Position numbers and translations under genes: made by a program. This document shows positions 33,512 to 55,012 of a stretch of 64,000 bases of DNA, piece after piece. The DNA lies in assembly GCA_944393135.1 (NCBI GenBank), contig CALXZC010000001.1:9501-73500 (forward strand), in the 5' to 3' direction. The notes beneath the pieces were generated by a model. That model searched no databases. It was not told the origin of the DNA and worked only from the letters and a program-made list of their open reading frames with translations. Positions within the stretch are counted from its first letter, which is position 1; each line of letters starts with the position of its first letter. This DNA comes from an uncultured Clostridia bacterium. Lineage in GTDB: Bacteria; Bacillota; Clostridia; TANB77; CAG-508.

Positions 33512-34048
33512 ATGGAAAAAATAGATTTAAATAATTATATAAGTAATAATGGAAGTATAATTTATATATTTTTAGATGTTGATGGTGTTTTAAATAGTGA
33601 AAATTATATTATTAAATGTTATGAAAAACATTATAAGCCAATGCATATGAACCACGTTCCATTTGACCCAAAATGTTTAAATAATTTAATGTTGTTAGTA
33701 CAAGAATTGGAAAAACATACATTAAAAGATGTAAAAATAATTTTAAGTTCTACTTGGCGATTAAGTGAAGTAGATTATGAAATTGTAAACGCAAGACTTG
33801 CGGAATATGGTTTAACATTAAGTGGTAAAACATCTTACATACACGGAGAACGTGGTAAAGAAATAAAAGAGTATTTAGATTCTTTAAGATATAAATGTTA
33901 TAATTTTATAATATTAGACGACGATATAAATGATATTATACCTTATTTTCCTAACAATTTAATTAGAACAACTAGCAAAACAGGATTTTCAAAAAGATAT
34001 TTAAATAAGGCTTTAAAATTCTTTAATATAGAGGAGGAAGTTAGATAG
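33512..34048 (+). CDS. HAD-superfamily phosphatase-like protein
   Basis: Motif I IFLDVDGVLN; later SSTWR and ILDDD motifs. Confidence 0.5.
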   Translation: MEKIDLNNYISNNGSIIYIFLDVDGVLNSENYIIKCYEKHYKPMHMNHVPFDPKCLNNLMLLVQELEKHTLKDVKIILSSTWRLSEVDYEIVNARLAEYGLTLSGKTSYIHGERGKEIKEYLDSLRYKCYNFIILDDDINDIIPYFPNNLIRTTSKTGFSKRYLNKALKFFNIEEEVR

Positions 34049-40488: not shown

Positions 40489-41184
40489 ATGGCAACAAAA
40501 ACAGAATCAAAACAATTAGTATTTGCTCCAAGGTGGAAACATTTAACAGTAACGATAAAAGGAGAAGCACCATTGGCAATGCAAAACAGACCACAGTCAG
40601 TAATTGAAAATTTAAGAAGAAAGGATAATGGATTACCTGTCATTAAATATAAAAATAGTGATTGGAGAAGATTTATAGATTCTATTCATTGGATAGATGA
40701 ATCTAAAAAACCAAATACATTAGATGATTCAATTACAGAAGAGCAATATCAAGAACAATTTAATAAACTTTTAAAAGAAAGTGAGGAAACAGGAGAACCA
40801 TTATTCTATATACCTACAGAAGCATTCAAAGAAAGTATTTGTAGTGGAGCATATAGAAACGGTATAACTAAGGATAAAGTTAGTATGAGAGGTTCTTTTA
40901 TAATAATTGGTGATAAAGCACCCATTAGATTTTCAAGTGTGGAAATGGAAGCGGTACCTACCATAAATAAAAATGCAAAAGGAGCTATGGTGGTAAGTGT
41001 ATATTCTAAATTTAACAATTGGGAAACCACATTAAAGATAAATTATAATGAAGAATTAATTTCCGCAGAAAATTTAATAAATATAATATGTGCATCTGGA
41101 TTAAGTGTGGGTGTACTTGCCAGAAGAACAGAATTAAGTTTTGGAAAATATGGTACATTTACAGCAACACAAGTTAAGAAATAA
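40489..41184 (+). CDS. hypothetical protein
   Basis: 231-aa ORF, RBS AAAGGAG. Confidence 0.55.
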   Translation: MATKTESKQLVFAPRWKHLTVTIKGEAPLAMQNRPQSVIENLRRKDNGLPVIKYKNSDWRRFIDSIHWIDESKKPNTLDDSITEEQYQEQFNKLLKESEETGEPLFYIPTEAFKESICSGAYRNGITKDKVSMRGSFIIIGDKAPIRFSSVEMEAVPTINKNAKGAMVVSVYSKFNNWETTLKINYNEELISAENLINIICASGLSVGVLARRTELSFGKYGTFTATQVKK

Positions 41185-41234
41185 ATCATTATAGGTGTTA
41201 TAATATATGTAGATATAAAAAGTTCCTTTTCTTT

Positions 41235-41309
41235 TGATAGGTAGCCTAGAGGGTTAGGCATAGGGCTCATAACCCTAATACGTGGGTTCGAATCCCACCT
41301 TATCAGCCA
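41235..41309 (+). tRNA. tRNA-Met(CAU), initiator-like, CCA encoded (cargo of cassette 1)
   Basis: Manual cloverleaf: TGATAGG TA GCCT AGAGGGTT AGGC A TAGGG CTCATAA CCCTA ATAC GTGGG TTCGAAT CCCAC CTTATCA G CCA. Three G:C pairs close the anticodon loop, as in tRNA-fMet. Confidence 0.85.
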
Positions 41310-41461
41310 TTTGTTACTTTTCATCTATATTCAAATTAGGGTATAAAAAGTTCCTTTTTGAGGGTAGTAACCCACAATTTTTTGGAAATTGAGTAATATT
41401 ACTTTTCACCCTATTTAATTTAATAATTAATTTTATACAACATAAAAAGTTCCTTATAACA

Positions 41462-41566
41462 ATTAGGGTCAAGCAGCCTGTCACTGGTTCGAGTCCAGTC
41501 TAGTGTAAATATTTATAAACGCGACTATATTTACGCTAGTAGCTCAGTTGGTAGAGCAGCCGCACA
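41462..41566 (+). tRNA. circularly permuted tRNA-like gene (cargo of cassette 3), anticodon not assignable
   Basis: T arm ACTGG TTCGAGT CCAGT, acceptor 3' strand CTAGTGT and A (41483-41507) lie upstream of acceptor 5' strand ACGCTAG and D arm TA GCTC AGTTGGTA GAGC (41533-41557); 7/7 acceptor pairs including one G-U. Confidence 0.5.
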
Positions 41567-41622
41567 TATTTTACTTTTCGTTGTATATATGTAATAATAG
41601 GCATAGAAACTTCCTTTAAAAA

Positions 41623-41665
41623 TGGTTAATCTTGGTTCGAATCCAAGAGTAGTGATTTAGCTACT
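41623..41665 (+). ncRNA. closed acceptor/T-arm minihelix (cargo of cassette 4)
   Basis: CTTGG TTCGAAT CCAAG T arm followed by hairpin AGTAGT-GATTTA-GCTACT; no D or anticodon arm. Confidence 0.35.
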
Positions 41666-41724
41666 TTAGTTAGTTTCAGCCTATATAATATTAAAAATGG
41701 TGGTATAAAAAGTTCCTTTATTTT

Positions 41725-41877
41725 GGTCTTGAAAACCGGTACATTGTAGGTTCGAATCCTACCTCCCCCACCAAACCCTTTAATTAGGGTTAATTCCAAC
41801 ATTATATTAATTTAGTGTGTTAAGTTTAAATATTTAACATACTAAATATGGGGGAGTGGCGGAATGGTAGACGCGCC
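41725..41877 (+). tRNA. circularly permuted (or split) tRNA gene, anticodon UGA (cargo of cassette 5)
   Basis: 3' part 41725-41773 is GGT CTTGAAA ACCGG TACATT GTAGG TTCGAAT CCTAC CTCCCCC A CCA. 5' part 41850-41877 is GGGGGAG TG GCG GAATGGTAGA CGC G CC. Acceptor pairs 7/7. Joining CC+GGT completes the anticodon stem CCGGT/ACCGG. Confidence 0.6.
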
Positions 41878-42013
41878 TTACATACTTTTCACCACATATT
41901 ATATACAATAGTGAGTTATAAGATGTTCCTTTTAATCCCTGATAAGGATTAGCCTTTTAAGCTAAATTATATTTACATCTCAACTCACTTTTATTTATTT
42001 AAAGGAGGATAAT

Positions 42014-42481
42014 ATGAAACAATTAAATTCTTATCAGCTTTGTTATGTAGAAGGTGGTAGATGGATGGATGAGGATATAACATTATATTTCACAGAGAGG
42101 GACGTTAAAGACCAGTGGGGTGATGGTTGGTCAAGACATCCATACGAACACAATGCTGGAACACCTTATGATGAGGATACTAGTGTTGAATTAGGTGTTG
42201 AAAATGGTAGAGGAGTATATCCAAAAATAGATATATTTAAAGTAATATTAACAACGAATGAATATAGTTATTTAATTACACCTTGTTCTAATACAGATAA
42301 TTCTATCTATTCTGTAAAGGATATAAATAGTAAATCCATACCTTGGGTAACTATTAAAAAAGATGATACTGTTGTATCTTTGTATGCTGGAACTACATAT
42401 AAAAAATTTTTAAGTTTAGTTAAAGATTTAGATTTTATTGAAATAATGGTTCCATATCATAGGTTTATTAAAAAGAAATAA
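42014..42481 (+). CDS. hypothetical protein
   Basis: 155-aa ORF, RBS AAAGGAGG. Confidence 0.55.
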   Translation: MKQLNSYQLCYVEGGRWMDEDITLYFTERDVKDQWGDGWSRHPYEHNAGTPYDEDTSVELGVENGRGVYPKIDIFKVILTTNEYSYLITPCSNTDNSIYSVKDINSKSIPWVTIKKDDTVVSLYAGTTYKKFLSLVKDLDFIEIMVPYHRFIKKK

Positions 42482-42504: not shown

Positions 42505-44583
42505 GTGATGAGAGATATGTTAGAAAAACAAATTATATCTTGTTTAAGATTATTTAAAGGTTATTTGCCTAATTGTACAAATGAATTAGACGTATGTAAA
42601 ACAGTGTTGGAATTTAAAGAAGATATGTTAAAAAGAGGCTTATTATTTGTAACAAAAACAACAGAGGATATATCGCCAAAAGTTGTAGAGTTGGCTGTAA
42701 ATATGTATGGAGTTAAAGAAGAGGAATGGAATCAAACATTTCATAAATCATTTGCAACAGTAAGAGATACCGATATAGAAACATTAGTAGTGCAACAAAT
42801 AGTACATTATATAACAACCTATGGATTTGAAGCATTAGGTATATATGATAAAGACACAGTATATATTCCAAAAGAGGAACTAGAAATACCGGAATTAGAC
42901 AGGGATATACCTTTAGTTGTTATTAAAGAATTAACAGAGGAAGAATTAGGTGAAAAATTATTAACATTATTAACATCAGGAATAGCCTTAAGTGAACAAA
43001 CAGTACAAGACGTTATGAATTTAAGTGATTATATACCTAAAACTAAATTTGATGATATTAAAAATAAAGAATTAAGAACAGCATTGTATGATAAATATAA
43101 TATTGTTCCAAGAAATAATGTAGAATTTTTAAGATATATGATTTATAAATTAACTAGTTCAACATTATTAATAAAGAATCAACAAACAATAAAAACTTTA
43201 AAAGAAGCTAATACAGAACAAGTGTATAATTTATTACATAGTTATCTAACTAATACATCAAATGGATATATAAAATTAGCGGAAATCTTCTTAAGATATA
43301 AGGATTTATTTTTAGCTTTAAAAAGGTCCGATGATAGTGTAGATATATTTAGTAAAACATCTTTTAAAGAAAATAAACAAATTAATAAAATTATTAATAA
43401 AATTAGTAAATTAGCTAAAAAATATCATAAACCTTTACAACCACAAATATTAGACCAATTAACACAATTATCTAGTACAAAAGTAATGGAAAAAGAATCT
43501 GAAATATTAGAAGAATTAAATAAGGTAACAATATTTAGAGAGTTAAGAATATTAAATGGTTTATTATATAGATTACAAAATCCTGAAAATATGTTATATA
43601 AGATAAGAAATGGAAAAGGTTATGTAAAATCATCTAAAAATTATAAGGTTGTTGATAGTAATTATAGTAAATATCAATATATTTACAATTTAGTATATAA
43701 ACATTTAGTACAAAGATTAACACTAATATTAAAAGATAAAACAGCTTATATTCCAGAAAATATAAATTATGCCTTACCAACATCTGAAAAACAATTTAAT
43801 GAAAATATACCTGAAGGCACATATATAGAGATACCTAGAACAACAAATATGGTTATAGGTGTACATTGGAAAAATACAAGTGGTAGAGTTGATTTAGATT
43901 TACACGCACAAAATAAAGACCAACAATTTGGATGGAATACAAGCTATAGAAGTGTAAGTGGTTCTGAATTTTATTATAGTGGTGATATTACAAGTCCAGA
44001 TGTGGAATATGGAGCAACAGAAGTATTTTATATAGGTCAAAGTTTAGAACAAAAAGCTTTTTTACTAACATTAAATGATTATTCAAGTCCTAATGAAGAT
44101 ATACCTTATGAGTTTTTTGTAGCAGAAACAGATAGAGAACAAGTGGATAAAAGTTATATAGTAAACCCAAATAAAGTTAAATTTATAACTACAGAAAAAT
44201 TTAAATATATACATTCTACAAAACAATTTGAATCTAGACAAAAAGTATTAGCATTTATAGTTATTAATAAAGATAGTATAAAAGTATATTTTAATGATTT
44301 TTCTTTAGGAAATTCTATTGTTACAAGACAAAATAATATTACACAAGGTGCTTTTAAATGTTTACAAATAGAGGCAGATAATAGATTAATGTTAAAAGAT
44401 ATTTTAGTAGATTGTGGTGTTAAATTAGTAGATAGTCCAACATATGATGAATTTATTAAAGATGAAACAATGTTAGACAAGGATGGACAACCTGTATACA
44501 AAAAGATAACACATAAAGTCGATTACGATTTATCATTAGAAAATATAGATAAAACAACTTTTATAAATTTATTAAATAGTTAA
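42505..44583 (+). CDS. large hypothetical protein; C-terminal TerD-like segment possible
   Basis: 692-aa ORF; VHWKNTSGRVDLDLHAQ...YYSGDITS...GATEVFYI resembles the TerD-domain pattern. Confidence 0.5.
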   Translation: MMRDMLEKQIISCLRLFKGYLPNCTNELDVCKTVLEFKEDMLKRGLLFVTKTTEDISPKVVELAVNMYGVKEEEWNQTFHKSFATVRDTDIETLVVQQIVHYITTYGFEALGIYDKDTVYIPKEELEIPELDRDIPLVVIKELTEEELGEKLLTLLTSGIALSEQTVQDVMNLSDYIPKTKFDDIKNKELRTALYDKYNIVPRNNVEFLRYMIYKLTSSTLLIKNQQTIKTLKEANTEQVYNLLHSYLTNTSNGYIKLAEIFLRYKDLFLALKRSDDSVDIFSKTSFKENKQINKIINKISKLAKKYHKPLQPQILDQLTQLSSTKVMEKESEILEELNKVTIFRELRILNGLLYRLQNPENMLYKIRNGKGYVKSSKNYKVVDSNYSKYQYIYNLVYKHLVQRLTLILKDKTAYIPENINYALPTSEKQFNENIPEGTYIEIPRTTNMVIGVHWKNTSGRVDLDLHAQNKDQQFGWNTSYRSVSGSEFYYSGDITSPDVEYGATEVFYIGQSLEQKAFLLTLNDYSSPNEDIPYEFFVAETDREQVDKSYIVNPNKVKFITTEKFKYIHSTKQFESRQKVLAFIVINKDSIKVYFNDFSLGNSIVTRQNNITQGAFKCLQIEADNRLMLKDILVDCGVKLVDSPTYDEFIKDETMLDKDGQPVYKKITHKVDYDLSLENIDKTTFINLLNS

Positions 44584-54112: not shown

Positions 54113-55012
54113 ATGAGTATTATTTTAATGGATGGTAAAAAAGTTTCACAAGAATTTTTACAAACACAAAAACATATAGATAATACATTAAGACCACCCT
54201 GTTTATGTATAATTACAGTTGGAAATGATATGGCGTCTAAGGTTTATATAAGAAATAAAATAAAAGCCTGTCAACAGTGTAATATAAATGTTATTCAGTC
54301 ACAATTTGATATAAATGTAACATATAGAACATTAGAGTTTTATATTAAAGAGTTAAATTCTAGTCCAAATGTAGATGGAATTATAATACAACAACCATTA
54401 CCGAAACAATTAAAAGGAATAGAACAATTAGTATTACCTGAAAAAGATGTAGATGGTTTTACAAATCAAAATTTAGGATATACATTAACAAATCAAAGTC
54501 AAGGATTACAGGCTTGTACATCACGAGGAATAATGTATCTACTAAAATATTACAATGTTCCATTAGAAGGAAAAACAGTTGTAATAATAGGTAGAAGTAA
54601 TATTGTAGGAAAACCTTTAATAGGATTATTATTACAAGAAAATGCAACAGTAATAAGTTGTAATTCATATACAGAATATTTATCAGAAGATACAGAACTC
54701 GCAGATGTGTTAATAACAGCCATAGGAAAACCTAAAATAATTGATATGTGTTATATAACAGATAGATGTTATTGTATAGTGGATGTGGGTATGAATAAAG
54801 ATGAAAATGGTAAAATTTGTGGAGATGTAAATTATAACCAAATTGTTAATGTTTGGAAATGTTGGCAAGAATTGTATAATGCACAAAGATTTATTACTCC
54901 AGTTCCTGGAGGAGTTGGACCAATGACTGTTGCAATGTTAATACATAATGTTAATTTAGCTTATCACAAAAATATAGAAAAACAATTACGTATAAAAACG
55001 GAGGAAGTATAA
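54113..55012 (+). CDS. folD: bifunctional methylene-THF dehydrogenase / methenyl-THF cyclohydrolase
   Basis: VGNDMASKVYIRNK, DGIIIQQPLP, VDGF, GRSNIVGKPL and PVPGGVGPMTVAML motifs. Confidence 0.9.
   Translation: MSIILMDGKKVSQEFLQTQKHIDNTLRPPCLCIITVGNDMASKVYIRNKIKACQQCNINVIQSQFDINVTYRTLEFYIKELNSSPNVDGIIIQQPLPKQLKGIEQLVLPEKDVDGFTNQNLGYTLTNQSQGLQACTSRGIMYLLKYYNVPLEGKTVVIIGRSNIVGKPLIGLLLQENATVISCNSYTEYLSEDTELADVLITAIGKPKIIDMCYITDRCYCIVDVGMNKDENGKICGDVNYNQIVNVWKCWQELYNAQRFITPVPGGVGPMTVAMLIHNVNLAYHKNIEKQLRIKTEEV

What the first reader, a model, noticed from the sequence alone, without database searches (positions are those of the whole stretch)
41458..41572. Cassette 3 is a second permuted tRNA-like gene, with a non-canonical anticodon region
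The T arm (ACTGG TTCGAGT CCAGT), acceptor 3' strand CTAGTGT and A (41483-41507) are followed by a 25-nt spacer that can extend the acceptor helix (AATAT/ATATT). Then come acceptor 5' strand ACGCTAG, TA and a canonical D arm GCTC AGTTGGTA GAGC (41533-41557). The acceptor pairs 7/7 with one G-U. No CCA is encoded. Applying the 11/6-nt rule joins ...GCCGCACA to ATTAGGGTCAAGCAGC.... This gives a stem GCCGC/GCAGC (with one C-A mismatch) closing a 14-nt loop ACAATTAGGGTCAA. No standard 7-nt anticodon loop can be drawn, and I cannot assign an anticodon. Enlarged anticodon loops are the classic feature of frameshift-suppressor tRNAs. A link to the CGG breaks is worth testing, but I found no CCG anticodon in a convincing loop position.
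Basis: partly seen in the sequence, partly recalled or inferred. Interest (0 to 1): 0.7.

Follow-up and report, generated by a model that had tools for sequence, protein, structure and literature searches.

The report
tRNA-shaped decoy RNA in phage array
This is not a split tRNA gene waiting to be rejoined: it is a tRNA-shaped non-coding RNA of the bacterial "Y RNA-like" (YrlA) type, one of six small RNAs that each sit inside the same conserved stem "handle" just upstream of a conserved phage protein of unknown function, an arrangement present in many phages and, as far as I could find, undescribed.

Summary
The sequence features are real. A T arm, a 7-bp acceptor helix, a canonical D arm and a 5-bp stem lie in permuted order. 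The unit is larger than reported (41434-41587).

It is closed by a bipartite handle: outer helix, AUA/C internal loop, 6-bp AAAAGU/ACUUUU helix, then an invariant UCCU. All six cassettes at 41207-41989 share this handle. One of them holds an ordinary tRNA-Met.

In cassette 3 the acceptor is a continuous 13-bp capped helix without CCA. Homologues cap it with 4-nt loops. No anticodon loop or conserved triplet exists. It therefore cannot be a decoding or frameshift-suppressor tRNA.

The architecture is that of YrlA. Rfam RF02553 matches over the full model length but below threshold. The Ro60-binding motif is absent and no TROVE protein was found.

Eight distant homologues give 98% pairing, with 22 of 32 pairs changed on both sides.

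The array always lies next to a ~690-aa protein family (>1,400 members). The predicted fold is an alpha-solenoid plus a TerD-like domain. Members include g174 of the cultured cyanophage S-CRM01.

Best reading: a handle-tagged tRNA mimic that forms a particle with, or is processed by, that protein. This is a new variant of a known kind.

The parts
41196..41204 (+). Candidate extended -10 promoter element (TGtTATAAT) in front of the first cassette
   Evidence: Read directly from the sequence. The same TGTTATATAAT-type element precedes the arrays in L125 and L128. The consensus scan did not list it because no -35 box is present. This is an inference.
41207..41989 (+). Array of six handle-flanked RNA cassettes. 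c1 is 41207-41330 (tRNA-Met CAU, 41235-41309). c2 is 41337-41413. c3 is 41434-41587. c4 is 41597-41684. c5 is 41700-41895. c6 is 41910-41989.
   Evidence: Repeats, the motif scan, ARAGORN and Rfam for the tRNA in c1, and covariance-model hits on c1-c5.
41434..41441 (+). Cassette 3 handle: outer helix, 5' strand (TATACAAC). It pairs with 41580-41587.
   Evidence: 8/8 complementary. All five outer-helix pairs scored change on both sides among homologues.
41442..41444 (+). Handle: 3-nt bulge AUA, opposite the single C at 41579
   Evidence: The consensus is A-(U/A)-A in 194 unique cassettes, and the opposite base is C in 172 of 194.
41445..41450 (+). Handle: inner 6-bp helix, purine-rich 5' strand (AAAAGU). 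It pairs with 41573-41578.
   Evidence: Compensatory variants occur in the same array: GAAACT/AGTTTC in c4 and AGATGT/ACATCT in c6.
41451..41472 (+). 5' joining strand (22 nt). It starts with the invariant UCCU (41451-54) and ends with UCAA.
   Evidence: UUCCU is identical in 116 of 116 unique covariance-model hits. YCAA precedes the stem in most cassette-3-type homologues.
41473..41477 (+). Anticodon-stem equivalent, 3' strand (GCAGC). It pairs with GCCGC at 41559-63, with a conserved central C.A mismatch.
   Evidence: Four of five pairs change on both sides. The same C.A mismatch occurs in L236 and L269.
41478..41482 (+). Variable-loop equivalent (CUGUC; G46, C48)
   Evidence: Direct reading; alignment.
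41483..41499 (+). T arm (ACUGG-UUCGAGU-CCAGU)
41500..41539 (+). Closed acceptor arm. A 7-bp acceptor equivalent (41500-06 / 41533-39) is extended by AAAUAU/AUAUUU into a 13-bp helix capped by a 14-nt loop (41513-26). There is no CCA.
   Evidence: (repeat I9). All seven acceptor pairs change on both sides among homologues.
41540..41558 (+). U8-A9, D arm (GCUC-AGUUGGUA-GAGC) and A26
   Evidence: The D arm is identical to the D arm of the Rfam YrlA consensus.
41559..41563 (+). Anticodon-stem equivalent, 5' strand (GCCGC)
41564..41572 (+). 3' joining strand (ACAUAUUUU). The last U is nearly invariant.
   Evidence: U in 183 of 194; 115 of 115.
41573..41587 (+). Handle 3' half: ACUUUU (inner helix), the single C (41579) and GUUGUAUA (outer helix)
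42505..44583 (+). Gene for the 692-aa protein that accompanies the array in every locus examined. The predicted fold is an alpha-helical N-terminal part plus a beta-rich C-terminal part with a TerD-like domain.
   Evidence: Homologues lie directly downstream of arrays (blastp). There are 1,421 homologues, none with a Pfam domain. The linkage is shown.
42014..42481 (+). 155-aa ORF between the array and the 692-aa gene. It is found only in close relatives.
   Evidence: tblastn finds it only in L257, L258 and L307. It has no family match.
40489..41184 (+). 231-aa ORF directly upstream of the array. It keeps this position in some clades only.
   Evidence: It matches phrog_4652, of unknown function.

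Best explanation
Cassette 3 encodes a stable, non-decoding, tRNA-shaped RNA of the YrlA type. YrlA is a circularly permuted tRNA with a capped acceptor stem and no anticodon loop.

The RNA's two ends are held together by a conserved bipartite handle. The handle consists of an outer helix, an A(U/A)A bulge opposite a single C, a 6-bp helix with a purine strand and a pyrimidine strand, and an invariant single-stranded UCCU.

It is one of six handle-closed modules transcribed as one array. The other five are an ordinary tRNA-Met, a second permuted tRNA-like RNA with CCA, a T-arm/acceptor minihelix, and two cassettes of anticodon-stem-loop look-alikes.

I propose that the handle is the recognition site for the ~690-aa protein encoded immediately downstream. 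The protein would bind each module and possibly excise it from the precursor.

I further propose that the tRNA-shaped payload presents a tRNA elbow and acceptor surface to host or phage tRNA-binding factors. It would act as a tether or a decoy, in the way Ro60-bound YrlA is thought to work.

Shown: the fold, the handle, the array, and the genetic linkage to the protein. Inferred: protein-handle binding, processing between cassettes, and the decoy or adaptor role.
For: 1. Fold. The MFE structure reproduces every helix, with z = -3.0. On 8 distant homologues, 98% of cells are paired and 22 of 32 pairs change on both sides. No shuffle out of 500 reaches the observed values, and slid controls give 28-48% pairing.

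2. YrlA-like architecture. RF02553 aligns over its whole length at 33.7 bits, E = 2e-5. Homologues in L259, L274, L236 and the S-CRM01 locus L320 score 31-41 bits. The published definition matches (PMC4201824; bioRxiv 10.1101/312249).

3. Handle. All six cassettes carry it, with compensatory changes. It was found in 194 unique cassettes. G.U pairs outnumber U.G pairs 48 to about 6, which indicates pairing in RNA read from the + strand. UUCCU is identical in 116 of 116 covariance-model hits.

4. Linkage.
   - The 692-aa protein family lies directly downstream of arrays in unrelated contigs.
   - All 20 IMG/VR loci found by protein similarity alone carry an array upstream.
   - So do 38 of 39 metagenome and genome loci.
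   - Cassette density is 4.8 per kb in the 800 nt upstream against 0.08 per kb elsewhere.
   - Handle cassettes also lie close to the homologous gene in Synechococcus phages S-CRM01 (g174) and S-CBWM1 and in Phass-1.

5. No terminator-like site lies between the array and the gene.

6. Precedent. Y RNAs are made from polycistronic precursors together with tRNAs, and several Y RNAs per locus is usual (PMC4201824).
Against: - No direct evidence shows that the protein binds or cuts RNA.
- The protein has no recognisable RNA-binding or nuclease domain.
- Its N-terminal part gives only generic alpha-solenoid matches.
- TerD domains are not known as RNA binders.
- The handle also encloses bona fide tRNAs with CCA. 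A pure processing role would explain that more simply.
- There are no expression data for this phage.
- The Ro60 analogy rests on RNA architecture only.
Confidence: 0.55

Rival explanations
1. The handle is only a processing signal, comparable to rRNA processing stems or to CRISPR/Cas6 and ToxIN repeats. The ~690-aa protein, or a host RNase, excises each cassette. Cassette 3 then acts as a free tRNA mimic, or is a substrate mimic for a tRNA-modifying or tRNA-processing activity of the protein. No lasting particle forms.
For: - The same handle flanks ordinary tRNAs with encoded CCA, at nearly constant linkers of 10-12 nt and 5-8 nt.
- Short AU-rich spacers separate the cassettes.
- In cyanophages, and in L274, the protein gene is embedded in large clusters of ordinary tRNA genes.
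- Many invariant polar residues (H, K, D, E, R) suggest an enzyme.
Against: - No nuclease or modification fold is detectable.
- Most cassettes are not tRNAs: only about six real tRNAs occur among roughly 200 array cassettes.
- Host RNase P and exonucleases already mature tRNAs without such a handle.
- This reading is not exclusive of the main explanation.
Confidence: 0.25
2. This is a genuine Ro60/Rsr-Y RNA system. The cassettes are Y RNAs bound by a host Rsr, or by a phage TROVE protein that lies outside the window or is too divergent to recognise. One candidate is the N-terminal part of the 692-aa protein.
For: - The YrlA-type architecture and the sub-threshold RF02553 matches.
- Arrays of Y RNAs with tRNAs are known (PMC4201824).
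- A weak Foldseek match of the full-length model to a crAss-like phage TROVE protein: E = 0.065, probability 0.51.
- A Listeria phage with an HHpred-level Rsr next to abundant ncRNAs near its tRNA genes (PMC12282133).
Against: - The GNCGAAN0-1G motif is absent; UCCU takes its place.
- No TROVE hit occurs in any window ORF.
- The 508-aa ORF is a zinc-ribbon protein with no Ro60 match by profile search.
- Neither the full-length model nor the N-domain model finds Ro60 or Rsr structures in the PDB.
- The C-terminal domain is TerD-like, not vWA.
Confidence: 0.08
3. One reading: the cassette is cut at fixed distances from the flanking repeats and ligated. This would give a tRNA with a 14-nt anticodon loop that decodes unusually, for example as a frameshift suppressor at CGG.
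For: - The permuted order is real.
- In cassette 5, the 11/6 spacing restores a perfect anticodon stem, CCGGU/ACCGG.
- CGG is extremely rare, 6 of 16,922 codons. Several +1 ORF overlaps contain CGG.
Against: - The acceptor is a closed 13-bp hairpin without a discriminator or CCA. Homologues have 4-nt caps.
- The strands to be joined are variable, with no conserved triplet and no CCG.
- The spacing is not exact in relatives.
- No RNA ligase or splicing endonuclease was found in the window.
- No bulge-helix-bulge geometry is present.
Confidence: 0.03
4. The cassettes are decaying tRNA pseudogenes or scrambled remnants of a tRNA cluster. Alternatively, they are DNA-level mobile cassettes bounded by recombination sites.
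For: The region sits where phages usually carry tRNA clusters. The cassettes are bounded by inverted repeats.
Against: - Double-sided compensatory changes occur in every variable helix across contigs whose partner proteins are only 30-50% identical.
- The asymmetry between G.U and U.G pairs points to RNA pairing, not DNA pairing.
- Strand and position relative to the protein gene are always the same.
Confidence: 0.03

Closest known systems
[quoted passage not shown] 2014 (PMC4201824); Wang et al. 2018 (bioRxiv 10.1101/312249)
   Same: - The 5' and 3' ends pair into a terminal stem.
- The interior is a circularly permuted tRNA: variable loop, T arm, closed acceptor stem-loop, D arm.
- The tRNA tertiary-interaction nucleotides are present.
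- The D arm sequence GCUCA..GGUAGAGC is identical to the YrlA consensus.
- There is no anticodon loop and no free CCA.
- It occurs alongside other small RNAs and tRNAs in one transcription unit.
   Different: - The terminal stem carries a different conserved module: an AUA/C loop, a 6-bp helix and UCCU, instead of GNCGAAN0-1G.
- No TROVE/Ro60 gene is detectable nearby. The constant neighbour is a ~690-aa protein with a TerD-like domain.
- Up to seven modules share one handle, including real tRNAs, minihelices and anticodon-arm look-alikes.
- The Rfam score is half the gathering threshold.
Mycobacterium smegmatis YrlA, which is cut by RNase P and receives CCA (PMC4201824)
   Same: It has a 7-bp acceptor equivalent. 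Cassette 5 and its relatives keep N-CCA, an AU-rich spacer and G1, and could be processed in the same way.
   Different: In cassette 3 the acceptor helix continues without a break for 13 bp and has no CCA. RNase P cleavage is therefore unlikely.
Circularly permuted tRNA genes of Cyanidioschyzon merolae and other algae and archaea
   Same: The 3' half is encoded upstream of the 5' half.
   Different: Those are matured through a bulge-helix-bulge junction and a circular intermediate into normal, aminoacylatable tRNAs with 7-nt anticodon loops. Here there is no bulge-helix-bulge motif, no opening of the acceptor end and no anticodon loop.
Two-piece (permuted) tmRNA genes (Rfam RF04321, RF01850)
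   Same: The T arm and acceptor 3' strand precede the acceptor 5' strand.
   Different: There is no tag reading frame, no pseudoknots and no CCA. Only cassette 5 gives a weak partial hit (21 bits).
Repeat-RNA arrays next to their dedicated protein: CRISPR/Cas6 and type III toxin-antitoxin ToxIN
   Same: An array of units shares a conserved structured element, lies immediately upstream of a protein gene and is on the same strand.
   Different: The conserved element here is split and encloses each variable payload. The payloads are tRNA mimics, not spacers or identical repeats. The protein is unrelated.
Stable RNAs C and D (species 1 and 2) in the phage T4 tRNA cluster (from my own knowledge)
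   Same: These are small, stable, non-tRNA RNAs co-transcribed with phage tRNAs, and their function is still unknown.
   Different: No shared handle or partner protein is known for them. I did not compare the sequences.

Membership tests
YrlA / bacterial Y RNA | tRNA-like domain in permuted order (V, T arm, closed acceptor stem-loop, D arm) with the tRNA tertiary-contact nucleotides | tested here: met
   Direct reading, the Rfam alignment, the MFE fold and covariation.
YrlA / bacterial Y RNA | Terminal stem formed by the 5' and 3' ends of the RNA | tested here: met
   An outer helix of 8 bp and an inner helix of 6 bp, both covarying. The RNA ends themselves are not mapped.
YrlA / bacterial Y RNA | GNCGAAN0-1G (Ro60/Rsr-contact) motif near the 5' end | tested here: not met
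   The 5' strand reads ...C AUA RRRAGU UCCU... in 194 cassettes. No GNCGAA is present.
YrlA / bacterial Y RNA | Encoded within about 4 kb of a TROVE/Ro60 gene on the same strand | tested here: not met
   No TROVE hit appeared in the ORFs scanned one by one or among the 25 families listed of 50 found for all 60 ORFs of 140 aa or more. Profile and fold searches of the two large neighbouring proteins found no Ro60. Only 64 kb of a roughly 200-kb genome was visible.
YrlA / bacterial Y RNA | Score at or above the Rfam RF02553 gathering threshold (69 bits) | tested here: not met
   33.7 bits over the full model length. Homologues score 31-41 bits.
YrlA / bacterial Y RNA | Physical binding to Ro60/Rsr | not testable with these tools
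   This needs immunoprecipitation or CLIP.
Canonical tRNA | Contiguous cloverleaf with a 7-nt anticodon loop; detectable by ARAGORN or Rfam RF00005 | tested here: not met
   Only cassette 1 (41235-41309) is called.
Permuted tRNA gene (C. merolae type) | The 3' half lies upstream of the 5' half | tested here: met
Permuted tRNA gene (C. merolae type) | After joining, a normal anticodon arm; the acceptor end can be opened to a 5' end and a discriminator-CCA 3' end | tested here: not met
   The acceptor is a capped 13-bp helix. Homologues have 4-nt caps. The joined 'loops' would be 10-15 nt and are not conserved.
Permuted tRNA gene (C. merolae type) | Bulge-helix-bulge motif at the junction for a splicing endonuclease | tested here: not met
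   The flank is a 3x1 internal loop plus a 6-bp helix with 9-nt and 22-nt single strands. This is not two 3-nt bulges 4 bp apart. No endonuclease or ligase was found.
Frameshift-suppressor tRNA | Aminoacylatable tRNA with an 8-nt anticodon loop or 4-base anticodon matching the shifted codon | tested here: not met
   No CCA end, no anticodon loop and no CCG.
Handle-flanked cassette family (defined here) | Outer helix, A(U/A)A opposite C, a 6-bp R-rich/Y-rich helix ending G-C then U-A, and UCCU; located in an array next to a homologue of the 692-aa protein | tested here: met

The most novel reading that the evidence does not exclude
The array and its ~690-aa partner form a previously unrecognised phage ribonucleoprotein system. 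One protein would load, through a universal UCCU-bearing handle, a set of interchangeable tRNA-part mimics. The set includes a whole L-shape with a capped acceptor, a CCA-bearing permuted tRNA, a T-arm minihelix, and anticodon stem-loops of Lys-UUU, Ile-GAU, Leu-CAA and Asn-GUU types. The system would intercept or titrate host tRNA-targeting factors during infection, such as anticodon nucleases and tRNA-modifying or tRNA-processing enzymes. It would be a functional analogue of Ro60-Y RNA that evolved with a different protein.
Probability: 0.3. Interest if true: 0.9.

Novelty: new variant of a known kind. Interest (0 to 1): 0.75.

Why it matters
Phage tRNA clusters are usually read as codon-usage aids or as spare tRNAs against anticodon nucleases. 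Here a large, widespread set of phages devotes a dedicated locus to RNAs that imitate tRNAs or parts of tRNAs but cannot decode.

The set includes gut phages of 45-220 kb and cultured cyanophages such as S-CRM01. All of these RNAs carry one conserved handle. All lie next to one conserved protein family of more than 1,400 members that has no annotation.

- This gives the function of YrlA-type tRNA mimics, unresolved since 2014, a second and independent system to study. That system is experimentally tractable, because S-CRM01 and its Synechococcus host are in culture.
- It defines a new structured RNA motif that is absent from Rfam 15.
- It assigns a testable, tRNA-related role to an uncharacterised protein family.
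- For annotation, it warns that 'permuted' or 'pseudo' tRNA fragments in phage genomes may be functional mimics.

Tried and rejected
- An exact scan for ATAAAAAGTTCCTT in IMG/VR gave only single chance matches.
- blastn of the region against 50,697 phage records found nothing.
- Protein-seeded locus searches with the 231-aa and 692-aa proteins as single sequences found nothing in IMG/VR. The alignment-based search later succeeded.
- The pattern GTTCCT N{15,40} GGTTCGARTCC returned mostly ordinary tRNAs. Re-scanning those hits with a structural filter exposed the first unrelated arrays.
- Ro60 hypothesis. Pfam, PHROGs, NCBIfam, profile-versus-PDB searches and two AF2 models with Foldseek gave no TROVE or Ro60 for the 692-aa protein. 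The only hint was a match to a viral TROVE protein with probability 0.51.
- The 508-aa ORF upstream was tested as a Ro60-sized candidate and rejected. It is a zinc-ribbon protein with no match.
- An exact '11/6-nt ruler' was rejected. Linkers are 10-12 nt and 5-8 nt, and junctions shift by 1-2 nt.
- A bulge-helix-bulge splicing motif was rejected on geometry.
- Known self-cleaving ribozymes and the cyanophage motifs manA, wcaG and abiF gave no Rfam match at E <= 10 on the array or E <= 0.01 on four related loci.
- Pairing of the invariant UCCU with a downstream AGG/GGA, as in the MFE fold, is not universal. L268 and the S-CRM01 cassette lack it. I left this open.
Full report
**Observation**

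These are the T arm (41483-99), the acceptor strands CTAGTGT (41500-06) and ACGCTAG (41533-39), U8-A9 plus a canonical D arm (41540-57), and GCCGC (41559-63) facing GCAGC (41473-77) with a C.A mismatch. No CCA is encoded. ARAGORN and Rfam at gathering thresholds call only one tRNA in the whole 64-kb window, tRNA-Met(CAU) at 41235-41309.

Two details differ from the description.
- The acceptor helix does not stop at 7 bp. CTAGTGTAAATAT pairs with ATATTTACGCTAG as a continuous 13-bp helix with a 14-nt cap (repeat I9). There is therefore no unpaired discriminator.
- The element extends beyond the reported coordinates.

**The cassette is closed by a conserved handle, and so are its five neighbours**

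Six units lie between 41207 and 41989. Each has the same frame, in this order:
1. an outer helix of variable sequence;
2. a 3-nt AUA bulge opposite a single C (A in cassette 4);
3. a 6-bp helix;
4. UCCU;
5. a payload;
6. a U;
7. the 3' strand of the 6-bp helix;
8. the 3' strand of the outer helix.

The 6-bp helix is AAAAGU/ACUUUU in four cassettes. It is GAAACU/AGUUUC in cassette 4 and AGAUGU/ACAUCU in cassette 6, which are compensatory changes within one array. For cassette 3 the outer helix is 41434-41/41580-87 and the inner helix is 41445-50/41573-78.

The payloads differ:
- cassette 1 holds the ordinary tRNA-Met, with CCA;
- cassette 5 holds a second permuted tRNA-like RNA with an intact UGA anticodon hairpin, N-CCA and a 76-nt spacer;
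- cassette 4 holds a T arm plus a capped acceptor minihelix;
- cassettes 2 and 6 hold hairpins with 7-nt loops that look like anticodon loops. In cassette 6 these are CUGAUAA and CUUUUAA.

**Relatives**

The window has about 26% G+C, and almost all ORFs are on the + strand. It encodes phage replication and queuosine-pathway genes.

The 231-aa protein upstream of the array has 48 homologues on contigs of about 200 kb. Their loci show related arrays in L125-127, L131-133 and L128-130.

A pattern scan of IMG/VR, followed by a structural filter, revealed the same handle in unrelated viral contigs: L144, L151, L158, L188, L205, L223, L236, L240 and L253.

From 194 unique cassettes the handle consensus is ...G-R-C | A-(U/A)-A | R-R-R-A-G-U | U-C-C-U-W-W ... 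U | A-C-Y-Y-Y-Y | C | G-Y-C.... In the inner helix, G.U pairs (48) greatly outnumber U.G pairs (about 6). This is expected for RNA pairing on the + strand and not for a DNA-level signal. UUCCU is identical in 116 of 116 unique covariance-model hits.

**Cassette 3 has true homologues and a strongly supported fold**

The same type has a 5-bp stem, no anticodon hairpin and a capped acceptor. It occurs in L125, L236 (5497-5608), L259 (1994-2104), L268, L269, L260 and L315, and in the cultured cyanophage S-CRM01 (L320, 2490-2595).

On an 8-sequence MAFFT alignment (A4), the structure I drew from the window sequence gives these counts:
- 98% of cells are paired;
- 22 of 32 pairs change on both sides;
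- 0 of 500 shuffles reach the observed values;
- slid controls give 28-48% pairing.

The central C.A mismatch of the 5-bp stem recurs in the window, L236 and L269, while the flanking pairs covary. The single-sequence MFE fold reproduces all helices (z = -3.0). A covariance model built from A4 finds 13 close relatives at 118-130 bits. It also finds about 65 further handle-flanked tRNA-like cassettes at 65-100 bits in 484 kb of loci.

**What it is not**

- The acceptor caps in homologues are as short as UUCG, UUAG, GUAA or, in L128, 2-4 nt. An aminoacylatable end cannot be produced.
- The two strands that the '11/6 rule' would ligate vary in length (implied loops of 10-15 nt) and in sequence. 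No conserved triplet is present.
- In relatives that retain an anticodon hairpin, the handle enters the 5' strand of the anticodon stem at positions that differ by 1-2 nt. In one Ser-like form (L259, 2131) it replaces the long variable arm.
- In cassettes with genuine tRNAs, the linkers are 10-12 nt and 5-8 nt.

The spacing is therefore a structural regularity, not a ligation ruler. CGG is indeed very rare (6 of 16,922 codons), and some +1 ORF overlaps contain it. Nothing in cassette 3 relates to CGG.

**What it resembles**

A permissive Rfam scan of the array gives one informative hit. RF02553, YrlA ('Y RNA-like'), aligns over its full 114 positions to 41456-41587 at 33.7 bits, against a gathering threshold of 69, with E = 2e-5. 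Homologues in four other loci score 31-41 bits.

YrlA RNAs are bound by the bacterial Ro60 orthologue Rsr. They consist of a terminal stem plus a domain described as a circularly permuted tRNA with a closed acceptor stem and no anticodon loop. In M. smegmatis the 7-bp acceptor is cut by RNase P and receives CCA. Y RNAs are co-transcribed with each other and with tRNAs (PMC4201824; bioRxiv 10.1101/312249). The architecture of cassette 3 matches, including an identical D arm.

**Membership tests that fail**

- The GNCGAAN0-1G Rsr-contact motif is absent.
- No TROVE domain was found in the window's ORFs.
- The Ro60-sized 508-aa ORF is a zinc-ribbon protein with no Ro60 match, even by profile search.

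**The constant partner**

A 692-aa ORF (42505-44583) follows the array after a 155-aa ORF. Its homologues lie directly downstream of the arrays in all the unrelated contigs (blastp, 28-77% identity). The family has at least 1,421 members in the 5.8-billion-protein set. None has a Pfam domain or a name.

Loci retrieved by protein similarity alone carry arrays immediately upstream in 20 of 20 IMG/VR cases and in 38 of 39 metagenome and genome cases. Cassette density is 4.8 per kb in the 800 nt upstream against 0.08 per kb elsewhere. Of 217 head motifs there, 207 have a paired tail.

tblastn against annotated phages finds the gene in Synechococcus phages S-CRM01 (g174) and S-CBWM1 (gp22), where it sits inside the tRNA gene clusters, and in gut phage Phass-1. 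All three carry handle cassettes close to the gene, directly upstream of it in the two cyanophages and about 1.3 kb downstream in Phass-1.

The AF2 model has a mean pLDDT of 78. It shows an alpha-helical N-terminal part and a beta-rich C-terminal part. Foldseek results are as follows:
- There is no significant PDB match for the whole protein or for the N-terminal part alone, only generic alpha-solenoids.
- In BFVD there are full-length matches to uncharacterised proteins of Campylobacter virus IBB35, Lactobacillus phage LpeD and a 'tellurium-resistance-like' protein.
- There are domain matches to TerD-like proteins.
- A TROVE protein appears only at E = 0.065.

**Mechanism**

Shown:
- a stable, covarying fold in which a conserved handle closes a tRNA-shaped body;
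- membership of an array of handle-closed modules;
- tight linkage to one protein family.

Inferred:
- The array is one transcript, based on the extended -10 element at 41196-41204 and the absence of terminator-like sites before the protein gene.
- Modules are separated in the short AU-rich spacers.
- The protein recognises the handle through its invariant UCCU, its bulge and its closing pairs.
- The tRNA-like body engages tRNA-binding factors as a tether or decoy, by analogy with Ro60-YrlA.

The main rival is that the handle is purely a processing signal and the protein a maturation enzyme. It is favoured by the presence of real tRNAs in handles and by the protein's location in ordinary tRNA clusters. 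The two readings are not exclusive.

**Novelty**

The RNA body is a known kind, a YrlA-type tRNA mimic. The handle, the multi-module array and the partner protein are not in Rfam 15, Pfam, PHROGs or NCBIfam. They are also absent from the papers I could search. I therefore rate it a new variant of a known kind, with a substantial chance that the whole locus is a new ribonucleoprotein system.

Noticed in passing
window 41910-41989 (cassette 6); also L128 5477-5540, L257 1749-1807, L259 2278-2341, L236 5637-5695: The last cassette of many arrays holds two hairpins with 5-bp stems and 7-nt loops identical to anticodon loops. Examples are CUGAUAA (Ile-GAU), CUUUUAA (Lys-UUU) and UUCAAAA (Leu-CAA). 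The stems covary while the loops stay fixed. They look like anticodon-arm decoys.
   Followed up: partly
window 41700-41895 (cassette 5); relatives L223 8188-8311 (- strand), L260 2347-2469, L274 2248-2371, L259 2131-2244: A second class of permuted tRNA-like cassettes keeps N-CCA, a short AU-rich spacer and a G1 acceptor start. RNase P cleavage and a free CCA end are therefore plausible, as in M. smegmatis YrlA. In L259 the handle replaces the long variable arm of a Ser-like tRNA.
   Followed up: partly
window 41452-41468; also 41335-41341 and 41783-41790: The MFE fold pairs the invariant CCUUA with UAGGG inside the 5' joining strand. The word (A)UUAGGGU occurs three times in the array. Many small cassettes carry AGG or GGA that could pair with UCCU, but some homologues (L268, S-CRM01) cannot. 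I could not resolve whether UCCU is single-stranded or masked.
   Followed up: partly
window, whole; overlaps at 7146-7243, 8552-8571, 23783-23850 and 54996-55012: CGG is almost unused (6 of 16,922 codons in long ORFs). Four +1 ORF overlaps contain a CGG.
   Followed up: partly
window 33512-34048: A 178-aa protein has a HAD domain of the 'Swiss Army Knife' RNA-repair type (PF18143, E = 1e-20), about 7 kb upstream of the array. No RNA ligase or kinase was seen in the window.
   Followed up: no
window 21410-23401: The clamp-loader (DNA pol III delta'-like) gene carries an inserted LAGLIDADG/Hom_end homing-endonuclease segment, probably an intein. Two GIY-YIG/NUMOD3 endonuclease ORFs are present elsewhere in the window.
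   Followed up: no
L121 4470-4830 and L123 3740-4100: In more distant relatives of this phage, a complete, non-permuted tmRNA gene follows the homologous 231-aa gene. It lies directly after the gene in L123 and about 0.75 kb downstream, past two small ORFs, in L121. No handle array was seen there.
   Followed up: no
L320 (Synechococcus phage S-CRM01, NC_015569) 2656-2802, - strand: The annotated hypothetical gene g173c lies on the opposite strand inside the handle-cassette array and is probably not a real gene. A further handle cassette follows g174 at L320 4702-4739.
   Followed up: no
L257 1411-1519 and L259 1590-1721: Handle-enclosed tRNAs with unusual anticodon loops lack U33: AAGAUAA in L257 and an AAU anticodon in L259. 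L128 and L259 also carry a 5' extra hairpin between the handle and the tRNA.
   Followed up: no
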